From: the human T2T-CHM13v2.0 reference genome, Homo sapiens
DNA: 64,000 nt
Assembly: GCF_009914755.1 (NCBI RefSeq)
Contig: NC_060935.1
Strand: one strand, 5' to 3'
Shown here piece after piece: positions 21,652 through 60,766 of this stretch (within the stretch, counting starts at the first letter, position 1; each line of letters begins with the position of its first letter). A program made the position numbers and the translations under genes. The notes below the pieces were generated by a model. That model did no database searches and was not told the DNA's origin. It saw nothing but the letters and a program-made list of their open reading frames with translations.

Positions 21652-24600
21652 AAGATTATTTTTTAAATCCTGAGGACTAGCATTAATTGACAGCTGACCC
21701 AGGTGCTACACAGAAGTGGATTCAGTGAATCTAGGAAGACAGCAGCAGACAGGATTCCAGGAACCAGTGTTTGATGAAGCTAGGACTGAGGAGCAAGCGA
21801 GCAAGCAGCAGTTCGTGGTGAAGATAGGAAAAGAGTCCAGGAGCCAGTGCGATTTGGTGAAGGAAGCTAGGAAGAAGGAAGGAGCGCTAACGATTTGGTG
21901 GTGAAGCTAGGAAAAAGGATTCCAGGAAGGAGCGAGTGCAATTTGGTGATGAAGGTAGCAGGCGGCTTGGCTTGGCAACCACACGGAGGAGGCGAGCAGG
22001 CGTTGTGCGTAGAGGATCCTAGACCAGCATGCCAGTGTGCCAAGGCCACAGGGAAAGCGAGTGGTTGGTAAAAATCCGTGAGGTCGGCAATATGTTGTTT
22101 TTCTGGAACTTACTTATGGTAACCTTTTATTTATTTTCTAATATAATGGGGGAGTTTCGTACTGAGGTGTAAAGGGATTTATATGGGGACGTAGGCCGAT
22201 TTCCGGGTGTTGTAGGTTTCTCTTTTTCAGGCTTATACTCATGAATCTTGTCTGAAGCTTTTGAGGGCAGACTGCCAAGTCCTGGAGAAATAGTAGATGG
22301 CAAGTTTGTGGGTTTTTTTTTTTTACACGAATTTGAGGAAAACCAAATGAATTTGATAGCCAAATTGAGACAATTTCAGCAAATCTGTAAGCAGTTTGTA
22401 TGTTTAGTTGGGGTAATGAAGTATTTCAGTTTTGTGAATAGATGACCTGTTTTTACTTCCTCACCCTGAATTCGTTTTGTAAATGTAGAGTTTGGATGTG
22501 TAACTGAGGCGGGGGGGAGTTTTCAGTATTTTTTTTTGTGGGGGTGGGGGCAAAATATGTTTTCAGTTCTTTTTCCCTTAGGTCTGTCTAGAATCCTAAA
22601 GGCAAATGACTCAAGGTGTAACAGAAAACAAGAAAATCCAATATCAGGATAATCAGACCACCACAGGTTTACAGTTTATAGAAACTAGAGCAGTTCTCAC
22701 GTTGAGGTCTGTGGAAGAGATGTCCATTGGAGAAATGGCTGGTAGTTACTCTTTTTTCCCCCCACCCCCTTAATCAGACTTTAAAAGTGCTTAACCCCTT
22801 AAACTTGTTATTTTTTACTTGAAGCATTTTGGGATGGTCTTAACAGGGAAGAGAGAGGGTGGGGGAGAAAATGTTTTTTTCTAAGATTTTCCACAGATGC
22901 TATAGTACTATTGACAAACTGGGTTAGAGAAGGAGTGTACCGCTGTGCTGTTGGCACGAACACCTTCAGGGACTGGAGCTGCTTTTATCCTTGGAAGAGT
23001 ATTCCCAGTTGAAGCTGAAAAGTACAGCACAGTGCAGCTTTGGTTCATATTCAGTCATCTCAGGAGAACTTCAGAAGAGCTTGAGTAGGCCAAATGTTGA
23101 AGTTAAGTTTTCCAATAATGTGACTTCTTAAAAGTTTTATTAAAGGGGAGGGGCAAATATTGGCAATTAGTTGGCAGTGGCCTGTTACGGTTGGGATTGG
23201 TGGGGTGGGTTTAGGTAATTGTTTAGTTTATGATTGCAGATAAACTCATGCCAGAGAACTTAAAGTCTTAGAATGGAAAAAGTAAAGAAATATCAACTTC
23301 CAAGTTGGCAAGTAACTCCCAATGATTTAGTTTTTTTCCCCCCAGTTTGAATTGGGAAGCTGGGGGAAGTTAAATATGAGCCACTGGGTGTACCAGTGCA
23401 TTAATTTGGGCAAGGAAAGTGTCATAATTTGATACTGTATCTGTTTTCCTTCAAAGTATAGAGCTTTTGGGGAAGGAAAGTATTGAACTGGGGGTTGGTC
23501 TGGCCTACTGGGCTGACATTAACTACAATTATGGGAAATGCAAAAGTTGTTTGGATATGGTAGTGTGTGGTTCTCTTTTGGAATTTTTTTCAGGTGATTT
23601 AATAATAATTTAAAACTACTATAGAAACTGCAGAGCAAAGGAAGTGGCTTAATGATCCTGAAGGGATTTCTTCTGATGGTAGCTTTTGTATTATCAAGTA
23701 AGATTCTATTTTCAGTTGTGTGTAAGCAAGTTTTTTTTTAGTGTAGGAGAAATACTTTTCCATTGTTTAACTGCAAAACAAGATGTTAAGGTATGCTTCA
23801 AAAATTTTGTAAATTGTTTATTTTAAACTTATCTGTTTGTAAATTGTAACTGATTAAGAATTGTGATAGTTCAGCTTGAATGTCTCTTAGAGGGTGGGCT
23901 TTTGTTGATGAGGGAGGGGAAACTTTTTTTTTTTCTATAGACTTTTTTCAGATAACATCTTCTGAGTCATAACCAGCCTGGCAGTATGATGGCCTAGATG
24001 CAGAGAAAACAGCTCCTTGGTGAATTGATAAGTAAAGGCAGAAAAGATTATATGTCATACCTCCATTGGGGAATAAGCATAACCCTGAGATTCTTACTAC
24101 TGATGAGAACATTATCTGCATATGCCAAAAAATTTTAAGCAAATGAAAGCTACCAATTTAAAGTTACGGAATCTACCATTTTAAAGTTAATTGCTTGTCA
24201 AGCTATAACCACAAAAATAATGAATTGATGAGAAATACAATGAAGAGGCAATGTCCATCTCAAAATACTGCTTTTACAAAAGCAGAATAAAAGCGAAAAG
24301 AAATGAAAATGTTACACTACATTAATCCTGGAATAAAAGAAGCCGAAATAAATGAGAGATGAGTTGGGATCAAGTGGATTGAGGAGGCTGTGCTGTGTGC
24401 CAATGTTTCGTTTGCCTCAGACAGGTATCTCTTCGTTATCAGAAGAGTTGCTTCATTTCATCTGGGAGCAGAAAACAGCAGGCAGCTGTTAACAGATAAG
24501 TTTAACTTGCATCTGCAGTATTGCATGTTAGGGATAAGTGCTTATTTTTAAGAGCTGTGGAGTTCTTAAATATCAACCATGGCACTTTCTCCTGACCCCT

Positions 24601-27327
24601 TCCCTAGGGGATTTCAGGATTGAGAAATTTTTCCATCGAGCCTTTTTAAAATTGTAGGACTTGTTCCTGTGGGCTTCAGTGATGGGATAGTACACTTCAC
24701 TCAGAGGCATTTGCATCTTTAAATAATTTCTTAAAAGCCTCTAAAGTGATCAGTGCCTTGATGCCAACTAAGGAAATTTGTTTAGCATTGAATCTCTGAA
24801 GGCTCTATGAAAGGAATAGCATGATGTGCTGTTAGAATCAGATGTTACTGCTAAAATTTACATGTTGTGATGTAAATTGTGTAGAAAACCATTAAATCAT
24901 TCAAAATAATAAACTATTTTTATTAGAGAATGTATACTTTTAGAAAGCTGTCTCCTTATTTAAATAAAATAGTGTTTGTCTGTAGTTCAGTGTTGGGGCA
25001 ATCTTGGGGGGGATTCTTCTCTAATCTTTCAGAAACTTTGTCTGCGAACACTCTTTAATGGACCAGATCAGGATTTGAGCGGAAGAACGAATGTAACTTT
25101 AAGGCAGGAAAGACAAATTTTATTCTTCATAAAGTGATGAGCATATAATAATTCCAGGCACATGGCAATAGAGGCCCTCTAAATAAGGAATAAATAACCT
25201 CTTAGACAGGTGGGAGATTATGATCAGAGTAAAAGGTAATTACACATTTTATTTCCAGAAAGTCAGGGGTCTATAAATTGACAGTGATTAGAGTAATACT
25301 TTTTCACATTTCCAAAGTTTGCATGTTAACTTTAAATGCTTACAATCTTAGAGTGGTAGGCAATGTTTTACACTATTGACCTTATATAGGGAAGGGAGGG
25401 GGTGCCTGTGGGGTTTTAAAGAATTTTCCTTTGCAGAGGCATTTCATCCTTCATGAAGCCATTCAGGATTTTGAATTGCATATGAGTGCTTGGCTCTTCC
25501 TTCTGTTCTAGTGAGTGTATGAGACCTTGCAGTGAGTTTATCAGCATACTCAAAATTTTTTTCCTGGAATTTGGAGGGATGGGAGGAGGGGGTGGGGCTT
25601 ACTTGTTGTAGCTTTTTTTTTTTTTACAGACTTCACAGAGAATGCAGTTGTCTTGACTTCAGGTTTGTCTGTTCTGTTGGCAAGTAAATGCAGTACTGTT
25701 CTGATCCCGCTGCTATTAGAATGCATTGTGAAACGACTGGAGTATGATTAAAAGTTGTGTTCCCCAATGCTTGGAGTAGTGATTGTTGAAGGAAAAAATC
25801 CAGCTGAGTGATAAAGGCTGAGTGTTGAGGAAATTTCTGCAGTTTTAAGCAGTCGTATTTGTGATTGAAGCTGAGTACATTTTGCTGGTGTATTTTTAGG
25901 TAAAATGCTTTTTGTTCATTTCTGGTGGTGGGAGGGGACTGAAGCCTTTAGTCTTTTCCAGATGCAACCTTAAAATCAGTGACAAGAAACATTCCAAACA
26001 AGCAACAGTCTTCAAGAAATTAAACTGGCAAGTGGAAATGTTTAAACAGTTCAGTGATCTTTAGTGCATTGTTTATGTGTGGGTTTCTCTCTCCCCTCCC
26101 TTGGTCTTAATTCTTACATGCAGGAACACTCAGCAGACACACGTATGCGAAGGGCCAGAGAAGCCAGACCCAGTAAGAAAAAATAGCCTATTTACTTTAA
26201 ATAAACCAAACATTCCATTTTAAATGTGGGGATTGGGAACCACTAGTTCTTTCAGATGGTATTCTTCAGACTATAGAAGGAGCTTCCAGTTGAATTCACC
26301 AGTGGACAAAATGAGGAAAACAGGTGAACAAGCTTTTTCTGTATTTACATACAAAGTCAGATCAGTTATGGGACAATAGTATTGAATAGATTTCAGCTTT
26401 ATGCTGGAGTAACTGGCATGTGAGCAAACTGTGTTGGCGTGGGGGTGGAGGGGTGAGGTGGGCGCTAAGCCTTTTTTTAAGATTTTTCAGGTACCCCTCA
26501 CTAAAGGCACCGAAGGCTTAAAGTAGGACAACCATGGAGCCTTCCTGTGGCAGGAGAGACAACAAAGCGCTATTATCCTAAGGTCAAGAGAAGTGTCAGC
26601 CTCACCTGATTTTTATTAGTAATGAGGACTTGCCTCAACTCCCTCTTTCTGGAGTGAAGCATCCGAAGGAATGCTTGAAGTACCCCTGGGCTTCTCTTAA
26701 CATTTAAGCAAGCTGTTTTTATAGCAGCTCTTAATAATAAAGCCCAAATCTCAAGCGGTGCTTGAAGGGGAGGGAAAGGGGGAAAGCGGGCAACCACTTT
26801 TCCCTAGCTTTTCCAGAAGCCTGTTAAAAGCAAGGTCTCCCCACAAGCAACTTCTCTGCCACATCGCCACCCCGTGCCTTTTGATCTAGCACAGACCCTT
26901 CACCCCTCACCTCGATGCAGCCAGTAGCTTGGATCCTTGTGGGCATGATCCATAATCGGTTTCAAGGTAACGATGGTGTCGAGGTCTTTGGTGGGTTGAA
27001 CTATGTTAGAAAAGGCCATTAATTTGCCTGCAAATTGTTAACAGAAGGGTATTAAAACCACAGCTAAGTAGCTCTATTATAATACTTATCCAGTGACTAA
27101 AACCAACTTAAACCAGTAAGTGGAGAAATAACATGTTCAAGAACTGTAATGCTGGGTGGGAACATGTAACTTGTAGACTGGAGAAGATAGGCATTTGAGT
27201 GGCTGAGAGGGCTTTTGGGTGGGAATGCAAAAATTCTCTGCTAAGACTTTTTCAGGTGAACATAACAGACTTGGCCAAGCTAGCATCTTAGCGGAAGCTG
27301 ATCTCCAATGCTCTTCAGTAGGGTCAT

Positions 27328-27420
27328 GAAGGTTTTTCTTTTCCTGAGAAAACAACACGTATTGTTTTCTCAGGTTTTGCTTTTTGGCCTTTTTCTAGCT
27401 TAAAAAAAAAAAAAGCAAAA
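27328..27420 (+). other. MALAT1 3' triple-helix stability element (ENE + genomically encoded A-rich tract)
   Basis: U-rich motif 1 TTTTTCTTTT (27333-27342), hairpin CCTGAGAAAACAA...TTGTTTTCTCAGG, U-rich motif 2 TTTTGCTTTTT (27375-27385), A-tract AAAAAAAAAAAAAGCAAAA (27402-27420). Confidence 0.97.
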
Positions 27421-27478
27421 GATGCTGGTGGTTGGCACTCCTGGTTTCCAGGACGGGGTTCAAATCCCTGCGGCGTCT
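27421..27478 (+). ncRNA. MASCRNA: mascRNA, tRNA-like small RNA (58 nt genomic, CCA added post-transcriptionally)
   Basis: Acceptor stem GATGCTG/CGGCGTC plus discriminator T, short D-arm GTG/CAC, stem TCCTGG-TTT-CCAGGA, T-arm CGGGG-TTCAAAT-CCCTG; directly abuts the A-tract. Confidence 0.96.
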
Positions 27479-27750
27479 TTGCTTTGACTACTAATCTGTC
27501 TTCAGGACTCTTTCTGTATTTCTCCTTTTCTCTGCAGGTGCTAGTTCTTGGAGTTTTGGGGAGGTGGGAGGTAACAGCACAATATCTTTGAACTATATAC
27601 ATCCTTGATGTATAATTTGTCAGGAGCTTGACTTGATTGTATATTCATATTTACACGAGAACCTAATATAACTGCCTTGTCTTTTTCAGGTAATAGCCTG
27701 CAGCTGGTGTTTTGAGAAGCCCTACTGCTGAAAACTTAACAATTTTGTGT

Positions 27751-27820
27751 AATAAAAATGGAGAAGCTCTAAATTGTTGTGGTTCTTTTGTGAATAAAAA
27801 AATCTTGATTGGGGAAAAAA
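27751..27820 (+). terminator. Canonical poly(A) signals downstream of mascRNA (minor polyadenylated MALAT1 end)
   Basis: AATAAA at 27751-27756 and 27793-27798 followed by GT-rich sequence. Confidence 0.7.
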
Positions 27821-28145
27821 GATGGGTGTTCTGTGGGCTTGTTCTGTTAAATCTGTGGTCTATAAACACAGCACCCATAATTACAGCATAATCTTCAAGT
27901 AGGGTACGGACTTTGGGGGATTGGTGCGAGGGTAGTGGGTGAGTGGCCTACTAAAAAGCCCAGTAACCCCCACAGGAAAATAGGGAACTTCTTTTTAAGT
28001 AGCCTCCTTTCCACTATTTAGTAATTGGCTGTGAGCTGGGCTGGGGGAGAAATGGGGCGGGGTGTGTGTGTCATTGGAAAGCTCTCTTTTTTGTTTTTTT
28101 GAGACAGTCTCACTTTGTCCCCCAGGCTGGAGTGTAGTGGCATGA

Positions 28146-28262
<117 letters not shown>

Positions 28263-28968
28263 TAGAGACGTGGTTTTACCATATTGGCCAGGCTGGTCTC
28301 AAACTCCTGACCTCGTGTGATCCACCCGCCTGGGCCTCTGAAAGTGCTGGGATTACAGGTGTGAGCCACCAAGCCTGGCCGATCCTTTTAAGTTTTTAAA
28401 CCAGTTAAGCTCTTTGGTTCCCCCTCAGAGTCCCAAGGTCCTGGGTCACTCAGGATCACATTTTCCTTTAATCAGTTGTCACTGGTCCCCTTTTGTCCCT
28501 TTGAACGTGCTGTGGGATTAGTAGCAGCATCTGGCTGTTGGAAGGACTGGCTGGGATCTCAGGTGAAATACCCTCCCTGGCCCTCCTTACCCTTAAGATC
28601 TCCCTGAAAAGTCAGACCTTGCTTATTGGAGTTTGAGATGCATTCTAGTAAACCCAGACCTACCAGAGAGAGGGACCCACGTCTGAAGAATCTTCCAGCC
28701 TGGGGAACCTGTGACTGGCCACACCCTTAGCCTAATGGAGGGGCCTCAGAAGCAGAACTACCTTTTTTTTTTTTTTTAATGGTATTACATTTTGCAAATG
28801 GAGAGGTAGACTCTGATTGGGCCCCTTTTGACAACGCAGCAGAGCTGAGGTTTGAATCCTAGTCAGTCAACACTTCAACCCCTATGTTGCTGTTTCTTCA
28901 ATGTCTAGAATGTTCTGATAGATGAAGCAATGGCCCGGCAGGTCAGCAGCACACCAACCCCCAACCTA

Positions 28969-42295: not shown

Positions 42296-42500
42296 TAGGA
42301 CATGGACATCTTTGAGGGGCTAGTATTCTGCCGACCACAATAGGCCAGAACCCTGAACAGTTTACTTTTTAGGCATCATATTTGCTAAAAACAAAACAAA
42401 CAAAAAAACCAAACCAAACAAAGAAGTAAAAATCAAAACAAACAAAAAACACAGAGCCATTTTTTGGAAAGACAATAATAGGAAGTCAAAATAATGTTAA

Positions 42501-47355: not shown

Positions 47356-60766
<13,411 letters not shown>

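What the first reader, a model, noticed from the sequence alone, without database searches (positions are those of the whole stretch)
27328..27478. Poly(A)-independent 3'-end system: triple helix + tRNA mimic (MALAT1 ENE/mascRNA)
The sequence shows two U-rich tracts flanking a hairpin, a genomic A13-GC-A4 tract and, with zero spacer, a 58-nt cloverleaf with a canonical T-loop (GGTTCAAATCC) but reduced D and anticodon arms. Established knowledge: RNase P cuts at 27420/27421, RNase Z at 27478, CCA is added, and the U-A.U triple helix (with a C-G.C interruption) caps the long RNA. One Pol II transcript thus gives a nuclear lncRNA and a cytoplasmic tRNA-like RNA. This is the most remarkable system in the window, but it is already described, not new.
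Basis: partly seen in the sequence, partly recalled or inferred. Interest (0 to 1): 0.8.

Follow-up and report, generated by a model that had tools for sequence, protein, structure and literature searches.

The report
MALAT1 triple-helix and mascRNA 3' end
This is the well-known end of the human MALAT1 RNA, where a tRNA-shaped piece is cut off and the remaining A-rich tail folds into a protective triple helix instead of receiving a poly(A) tail; it is real, and it is already fully described.

Summary
- U5CU4 at 27333-27342.
- A 13-bp hairpin at 27343-27374.
- U4GCU5 at 27375-27385.
- A13GCA4 at 27402-27420.
- With no spacer, a 58-nt cloverleaf at 27421-27478.

The cloverleaf scores 80 bits on Rfam mascRNA-menRNA, against a cut-off of 42.5. 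The three strands fit base for base the published register of 5 U.A-U, one C.G-C, a C-G doublet and 4 U.A-U.

The human genome holds only two such modules. One is this; the other sits at the NEAT1 3' end, 60.6 kb upstream. That copy shows compensatory changes in the hairpin and in the anticodon-like stem.

The 3' trailer, 27479-27485, pairs with the A tract before cleavage and leaves A27420 bulged. This was shown experimentally by Torabi et al. 2021.

The processing steps (RNase P, RNase Z, CCA addition) rest on the literature, not on tests made here.

Interest as a discovery is low.

The parts
27328..27332 (+). 5' strand of the stem that closes the U-rich internal loop of the ENE from below (GAAGG). 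Its register is not resolved here.
   Evidence: By direct reading it is complementary to CCUUU at 27388-27392. The nearest-neighbour fold of the ENE alone instead pairs 27328-27333 with 27379-27384 and 27321-27326 with 27385-27390. This is inferred, not settled.
27333..27342 (+). U-rich motif 1 (UUUUUCUUUU), the Hoogsteen (third) strand of the triple helix.
   Evidence: Register map. U27333-37 lie over A27410-14, C27338 over G27415, and U27339-42 over A27417-20. This equals the published 5 U.A-U + C.G-C + 4 U.A-U (PMC4836648).
27343..27374 (+). Upper ENE hairpin: 13 perfect base pairs and a 6-nt loop (27356-27361).
   Evidence: I1. Against the NEAT1 copy, 5 of 13 pairs are changed on both sides and still pair.
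27375..27385 (+). U-rich motif 2 (UUUUGCUUUUU), the Watson-Crick strand of the triple helix.
   Evidence: 11 of 11 complementary to 27410-27420 (I2). 10 of these 11 pairs are identical in NEAT1.
27386..27401 (+). Linker between the ENE and the A-rich tract. It includes the 3' strand of the lower stem.
   Evidence: It is poorly conserved against NEAT1 (alignments).
27402..27420 (+). Genomically encoded A-rich tract, A13-GC-A4. Its last 11 nt are the purine strand of the triple helix, and A27420 is the mature MALAT1 3' end.
   Evidence: The three-strand pattern ends on 27420 and the Rfam model starts on 27421. The role is taken from the literature.
27421..27478 (+). mascRNA, a 58-nt tRNA-like cloverleaf (57 nt in the Rfam match plus the discriminator U27478).
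   Evidence: RF01684 at 80 bits. The MFE fold is the cloverleaf. It is identical to the published cassette and annotated as MASCRNA by RefSeq. ARAGORN calls no tRNA.
27479..27485 (+). Conserved 7-nt 3' trailer (UUGCUUU). Together with U27478 it pairs with A27412-A27419 in the precursor, which extends the acceptor stem and bulges A27420.
   Evidence: 8 of 8 pairs; I4; present in the MFE folds. Mutational evidence is in PMC8457004.
27751..27820 (+). Downstream canonical poly(A) signals (AATAAA at 27751 and 27793) and the annotated MALAT1 end at 27820. This is the 3' end of transcripts that escape RNase P.
   Evidence: The paper states that RNase P cleaves about 0.4 kb upstream of the classical poly(A) site, and 27820 minus 27420 is 400.

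Best explanation
This is the 3'-end maturation module of the human lncRNA MALAT1.

The Pol II primary transcript runs through the region. The 58-nt segment at 27421-27478 folds into a tRNA-like cloverleaf. [quoted passage not shown]

RNase P cuts between 27420 and 27421. RNase Z then cuts after 27478, and CCA is added to give the 61-nt cytoplasmic mascRNA.

The freed A tract has lost its trailer partner. It pairs with U-rich motif 2 (Watson-Crick) and is covered by U-rich motif 1 (Hoogsteen). The result is a blunt-ended bipartite triple helix of 5 U.A-U, one C.G-C, a C-G doublet and 4 U.A-U. The GC dinucleotide fixes its register. The helix shields the 3' end from exonucleases and so replaces a poly(A) tail.

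Shown here: every sequence part, the registers, the folds, the rarity of the module in the genome, and covariation with the paralogue.

Taken from the literature: the enzymes, the order of cuts, CCA addition, localisation and stabilisation.
For: - The Rfam mascRNA-menRNA match scores 80 bits against a cut-off of 42.5.
- The cloverleaf is the MFE fold and holds 61% of the ensemble.
- The triplex register fits with 11 of 11 Watson-Crick pairs and 10 Hoogsteen-compatible pyrimidines. This equals the solved structure as described in PMC4836648.
- The leader-trailer helix has 8 of 8 pairs with A27420 bulged. It appears in the MFE of the 88-nt, 170-nt and 220-nt precursors. After removal of mascRNA the A tract pairs with U-rich motif 2 instead. 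Both results match the cleavage-triggered refolding proposed in PMC8457004.
- Genome-wide there are 2 RF01684 matches and 2 three-strand pattern matches. Both lie at MALAT1 and at the annotated 3' end of NEAT1.
- Paralogue covariation: 5 hairpin pairs are changed on both sides. All 21 cloverleaf pairs are kept in both copies, and 3 anticodon-like-stem pairs are changed on both sides (my reading of the alignments).
- The sequence is identical to the published mascRNA and trailer.
- Literature on the mechanism: and the abstracts.
Against: - Nothing found here contradicts the explanation.
- No expression, 3'-end or small-RNA data can be examined with these tools.
- The four primary papers (Wilusz 2008, Brown 2012, Wilusz 2012, Brown 2014) are not held. 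The enzymology is therefore cited second-hand.
- Nearest-neighbour folding cannot model triple helices.
- The lower-stem register of the ENE is not settled.
- With only two sequences the covariation test is weak: 18 of 500 shuffles reach the observed values.
- The reversed-pattern control contains a CpG and is therefore a lenient null. One search gives a fairer one.
- The RefSeq MALAT1 model ends at 27820, not at 27420.
Confidence: 0.97

Rival explanations
1. The cloverleaf is an independent Pol III tRNA-like gene or tRNA pseudogene that happens to lie inside MALAT1. The small RNA would then be transcribed on its own rather than cut out of the long transcript.
For: A B-box-like GGTTCAAATCC lies at 27457, 10 of 11 against the consensus as I recall it. 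The T arm is tRNA-like.
Against: - No A-box-like site is found within 1 mismatch. The only sites with 2 mismatches are misplaced, at 27433 and 27442.
- The first T4 run lies 48 nt beyond the 3' end.
- ARAGORN finds no tRNA.
- No tRNA-clan match exceeds 10 bits.
- The anticodon loop has only 3 nt.
- The leader and trailer are complementary, and the literature reports the trailer as conserved, unlike those of tRNA genes.
- The literature reports excision from the MALAT1 transcript.
Confidence: 0.01
2. The functional 3' end is the annotated poly(A) site at 27820. The ENE would then clamp a post-transcriptional poly(A) tail, as in KSHV PAN RNA, and the genomic A tract would be incidental.
For: There are two AATAAA signals, at 27751 and 27793, and the RefSeq end is at 27820 (hub annotation).
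Against: - The GC dinucleotide of the A tract matches the GC in U-rich motif 2 and the C in motif 1 exactly. A homopolymeric tail cannot provide that.
- The same A(n)GCA4 is kept in NEAT1 directly before menRNA.
- The literature describes the poly(A) form as the product of failed RNase P processing.
Confidence: 0.02
3. A chance juxtaposition of low-complexity T-rich and A-rich DNA with a tRNA-derived repeat fragment, with no joint function.
For: The Watson-Crick half alone (U4GCU4 ... A4GCA4) occurs at 35 places in the genome, so such hairpins do arise by chance.
Against: - Only 2 of those 35 places have the third strand at the right distance, and both abut an RF01684 match.
- 0 of 100 shuffles of the window contain the pattern.
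- The 14 other places fetched, out of 33, show no exact Hoogsteen motif and no Rfam match.
- The paralogue shows compensatory changes.
Confidence: 0.003

Closest known systems
NEAT1 / MEN-beta 3' end (ENE + A-rich tract + menRNA), chr11, 60.6 kb upstream of this module
   Same: The order of parts and the register are the same. It has U3CU4, a hairpin, U4GCU4 and A5GCA4, with a 10-bp Watson-Crick duplex, followed directly by an RF01684 cloverleaf at 67.2 bits. The trailer is again partly complementary to the A tract.
   Different: - The Hoogsteen and Watson-Crick U runs are shorter.
- The hairpin is GC-rich, with an A.C mismatch.
- The A tract has 5 A's where MALAT1 has 13.
- The cloverleaf starts with GG and has G-U pairs in its acceptor stem. 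menRNA is reported to be CCACCA-tagged and unstable.
- The leader-trailer helix has only 5 bp and is separated from the acceptor stem by an internal loop.
KSHV PAN RNA ENE (expression and nuclear retention element)
   Same: A stem-loop with a U-rich internal loop that clamps an A-rich 3' segment into a U.A-U triple helix and protects the RNA from decay (introduction of PMC4836648).
   Different: PAN uses a post-transcriptional poly(A) tail and a single, shorter stack; the paper gives 3-5 consecutive triples as typical. MALAT1 uses a genome-encoded tract, 10 triples in two stacks, a GC register lock, and RNase P for end formation. No PAN sequence was compared here.
Canonical pre-tRNA
   Same: A 7-bp acceptor stem, a T arm with a GGTTCAAATCC-type loop and a discriminator base. 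According to the literature it is processed by RNase P, RNase Z and the CCA-adding enzyme.
   Different: - The D stem has 3 bp.
- No bases lie between the acceptor and D stems.
- The anticodon-like stem has 6 bp and only a 3-nt loop.
- There is no variable loop.
- tRNA finders do not call it.
- The leader and trailer are functionally required, and the literature reports the trailer as conserved.

Membership tests
Rfam RF01684 mascRNA-menRNA | Covariance-model score at or above the curated gathering score (42.5 bits) over the full model. | tested here: met
   80 bits, model positions 1-56 of 56, E 3.1e-15.
Rfam RF01684 mascRNA-menRNA | Lies directly 3' of the A-rich tract of a long non-coding RNA, with no spacer. 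| tested here: met
   The pattern ends at 27420 and the model starts at 27421. NEAT1 has the same arrangement.
Rfam RF01684 mascRNA-menRNA | Excised by RNase P and RNase Z, CCA added, exported to the cytoplasm. | not testable with these tools
   Literature only: PMC8457004 introduction and PMC4824109 passages. The primary paper is not held.
MALAT1/MEN-beta type ENE+A triple helix | Two U-rich motifs that form an internal loop around a hairpin. | tested here: met
   U5CU4 and U4GCU5 flank a 13-bp hairpin. The register of the lower closing stem is not settled.
MALAT1/MEN-beta type ENE+A triple helix | A genome-encoded A-rich tract in cis whose GC dinucleotide sets the register: a C.G-C triple and a C-G doublet between two U.A-U stacks, with a blunt 3' end. 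| tested here: met
   The base-by-base map gives 5+1+4 triples, one doublet and a blunt end at A27420 paired with U27375. It matches the description of the solved structure.
MALAT1/MEN-beta type ENE+A triple helix | The triple helix actually forms and stabilises the RNA. | not testable with these tools
   The crystal structure and reporter assays are known only as cited in held papers and in the abstract of a 2026 preprint. Brown 2012 and Brown 2014 are not held.
Canonical tRNA | A 7-nt anticodon loop on a 5-bp stem and a standard D arm, recognised by tRNA finders. | tested here: not met
   The loop has 3 nt on a 6-bp stem and the D stem has 3 bp. ARAGORN finds 0 genes. No tRNA-clan match exceeds 10 bits.

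The most novel reading that the evidence does not exclude
[quoted passage not shown] It might act as an upstream 'anti-acceptor' that competes with cloverleaf formation and tunes how much transcript is cut by RNase P and how much reads through to the poly(A) site.

Against this reading:
- About 0.7 such 8-mer pairs are expected by chance in a 311-nt stretch (my estimate).
- The pairing is absent from the MFE and centroid folds of the 220-nt precursor.
- NEAT1 has no counterpart.
Probability: 0.03. Interest if true: 0.3.

Novelty: already known. Interest (0 to 1): 0.08.

Why it matters
The module is the standard example of poly(A)-independent stabilisation of a Pol II transcript. It is also a drug target in cancer and a tool for tail-less synthetic mRNAs (abstracts listed).

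For the scan its value is as a positive control. A tool-less reader recovered a complex RNA system correctly, to the nucleotide. The tools add three things:
- The point that no Rfam family covers the ENE+A half.
- The result that this complete human assembly holds no third copy within the limits of the searches made here.

Nothing new about the biology follows.

Tried and rejected
1. Search for a third human module.
- RF01684 over the whole genome gave 2 matches, with 68 of about 738,512 first-look candidates scored.
- The strict three-strand pattern gave 2 matches.
- The relaxed two-strand pattern gave 35 places.
- Of the 33 places other than MALAT1 and NEAT1, only 14 were fetched as loci. 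None has an exact Hoogsteen motif upstream, and none has an Rfam match.
- One-mismatch motifs occur at L005, L006, L010, L013, L014, L015, L018 and L019. None is followed by a tRNA-like element.
- L014 has a short hairpin after a U4 run. Its U-rich strand lies 17 nt from the hairpin and nothing would form a 3' end there, so I judged it chance.
- The remaining 19 places were seen only as matched strings.

2. A covariance model of ENE+A built from the two paralogues (R1) could not be run over the genome. In the window it finds only the source locus and weak hits of 21 bits or less.

3. Rfam at E up to 10 over 27000-27900 recognises nothing for the ENE. The best match is a Streptococcus sRNA model at E 0.39, which I take as chance.

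4. The upstream octamer complementary to the cleavage site is judged chance.

5. The four primary papers could not be read.

7. No vertebrate orthologues could be fetched from the collections on offer. Conservation beyond the human paralogue therefore rests on PMC10869381 (passages) and PMC8457004. Their supplements were not opened.

Full report
**Observation**

- UUUUUCUUUU (27333-27342) and UUUUGCUUUUU (27375-27385) flank a perfect 13-bp hairpin at 27343-27374 with a 6-nt loop.
- After a 16-nt linker comes A13-GC-A4 (27402-27420).
- G27421 then starts a 58-nt cloverleaf.

A pattern-free search for inverted repeats in 27250-27560 returned four pairs. Three of them are the functional helices:
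- the hairpin (I1);
- U-rich motif 2 with the last 11 nt of the A tract, 100% complementary (I2);
- 27412-27419 with 27478-27485, 100% complementary (I4).

**The tRNA-like part**

cmscan of the whole window against Rfam 15 places RF01684 (mascRNA-menRNA) at 27421-27477. It covers the full model and scores 80 bits against a gathering score of 42.5, with E 3.1e-15. U27478 is the discriminator.

The MFE fold is the same cloverleaf and holds 61% of the ensemble. Its z-score is -2.15, and 6 of 200 shuffles fold as well. The opposite strand does not fold better than its shuffles, z -0.40.

It is not a tRNA.
- ARAGORN finds none in 26500-28500.
- At E up to 10 the only tRNA-clan match is 10 bits, over the T arm.
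- The arms are a 3-bp D stem with a 5-nt loop and a 6-bp anticodon-like stem with a 3-nt loop. There is no variable loop and no bases lie between the acceptor and D stems.

The 58 nt equal the published human mascRNA cassette, which is followed by CCA (passage of PMC9777231). The next 11 nt equal the published wild-type trailer (PMC8457004).

**The triple-helix part**

A base-by-base map gives the following.
- A27420-A27417 pair with U27375-U27378.
- C27416 pairs with G27379, and G27415 with C27380.
- A27414-A27410 pair with U27381-U27385.
- The parallel third strand puts U27333-37 over A27410-14, C27338 over G27415, nothing over C27416, and U27339-42 over A27417-20.

That is five U.A-U, one C.G-C, a C-G doublet and four U.A-U, blunt at the 3' end. 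It is exactly how PMC4836648 describes the solved MALAT1 structure: 10 major-groove triples in two stacks separated by a C-G pair.

ViennaRNA cannot model triplexes. It does predict the hairpin and the duplex between U-rich motif 2 and the A tract for the cleaved product, with z -3.88 and 0 of 200 shuffles folding as well.

The register of the stem that closes the U-rich loop from below is not settled. The fold of the ENE alone slides it into U-rich motif 2. Simple complementarity suggests 27328-27332 with 27388-27392.

No Rfam family recognises this half. The Rfam 'MALAT1' model matches 24218-24312 instead.

U27478 and the trailer (27479-27485) pair with A27412-A27419 at 8 of 8 positions, which leaves A27420 as a single bulge at the cleavage site.

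This extended acceptor stem is in the MFE of the 88-nt, 170-nt and 220-nt precursors, with z -4.25, -5.06 and -4.44. In the precursor the A tract is therefore predicted to be held by the trailer. Only after the cut does it pair with U-rich motif 2.

Torabi, DeGregorio and Steitz showed by compensatory mutations that this helix and the bulged A are needed for efficient RNase P processing. They proposed that it prevents premature triplex formation and explains why RNase P acts before RNase Z (PMC8457004: introduction and parts 1 and 2 of 3 of the results read).

**Rarity and relatives**

- RF01684 matches the 3.1-Gb genome twice: here, and at chr11:65438834-65438891 at 67.2 bits. That site is the base after the annotated NEAT1 end (68 first-look candidates scored).
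- The three-strand pattern also occurs exactly twice, forward only, and each match ends on the base before the cloverleaf.
- The built-in control of that search contains a CpG and is lenient. In 100 dinucleotide-preserving shuffles of the window the pattern never occurs.
- The Watson-Crick half alone occurs at 35 places. Of the 33 others, 14 were fetched, and they show neither an exact third strand nor any Rfam match.

Comparison with the NEAT1 copy:
- The triplex strands and the GC lock are kept, with 10 of 11 duplex pairs identical.
- 5 of 13 hairpin pairs are changed on both sides and still pair. Overall 93.6% of cells are paired, against 40-61% when partners are slid. With only two sequences, 18 of 500 shuffles do as well.
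- In the cloverleaf all 21 pairs are standard in both copies, and three pairs of the anticodon-like stem are changed on both sides (my reading).

According to PMC10869381 (passages), the module is present in all jawed vertebrates and NEAT1 may derive from a duplication. I could not test this, because no vertebrate genomes are on offer.

**Mechanism and rivals**

The best explanation is the published one, given at 0.97.

- A free-standing Pol III gene is unlikely. There is a B-box-like site, but no A box within one mismatch and no T4 run within 47 nt of the 3' end. The consensus motifs are recalled.
- A PAN-like clamp on a poly(A) tail added at 27820 is unlikely because the GC register needs the templated tract. 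The AATAAA signals at 27751 and 27793 and the RefSeq end at 27820 fit the read-through form that appears when RNase P fails.
- Chance is excluded by the counts above.

**Status of the literature**

- Read in part: PMC8457004, PMC4836648, PMC9777231, PMC4824109 and PMC10869381.
- Abstracts only: PMC13408128 and the preprint 10.64898/2026.05.20.726613.
- Search listing only: the other papers.
- Not held: Wilusz 2008, Brown 2012, Wilusz 2012 and Brown 2014.
- The search for MALAT1, triple helix, mascRNA and RNase P found 74 papers that hold all four terms. That alone shows how well described the system is.

**Verdict**

Interest as a finding is 0.08. The only unexplained item is an 8-nt upstream complement of the cleavage site, and it is most likely chance.

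Noticed in passing
window 27282-27289 (+) with 27419-27426: [quoted passage not shown] It is not used in the 220-nt MFE fold and has no counterpart in NEAT1. It is probably chance.
   Followed up: partly
window 24218-24312 (+): Rfam RF01871 'MALAT1' conserved region, 112 bits, an unstructured model. It is a separate conserved block 3.1 kb upstream of the ENE.
   Followed up: no
window 49660-49776 (+): A match to Metazoa_SRP at 71 bits, just over the cut-off of 70, with 191 model positions skipped. It lies in the SCYL1 intron between exons 49164-49319 and 52832-52990. It looks like an Alu-type SRP-derived repeat, not an SRP RNA gene.
   Followed up: no
window 27751-27820 (+): Two AATAAA signals, at 27751 and 27793, precede the RefSeq MALAT1 end at 27820. 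The 'selected' RefSeq model therefore describes the read-through, polyadenylated form and runs 400 nt past the mature end at 27420. It contains mascRNA.
   Followed up: partly
L002 1488-1571 (chr11:65438821-65438904, NEAT1 3' end): In NEAT1 the trailer pairs with the A tract over only 5 bp (1493-1497 with 1561-1565). An AAA/GC internal loop separates this helix from the acceptor stem, and a further GGAA/UUCC helix follows. The fold is not better than its shuffles (z -1.23). This is a weaker version of the MALAT1 leader-trailer helix.
   Followed up: partly
window 42316-42408 (+): A weak match of the home-made ENE+A model R1, 17.2 bits, E 0.14. It was not inspected and is probably chance.
   Followed up: no
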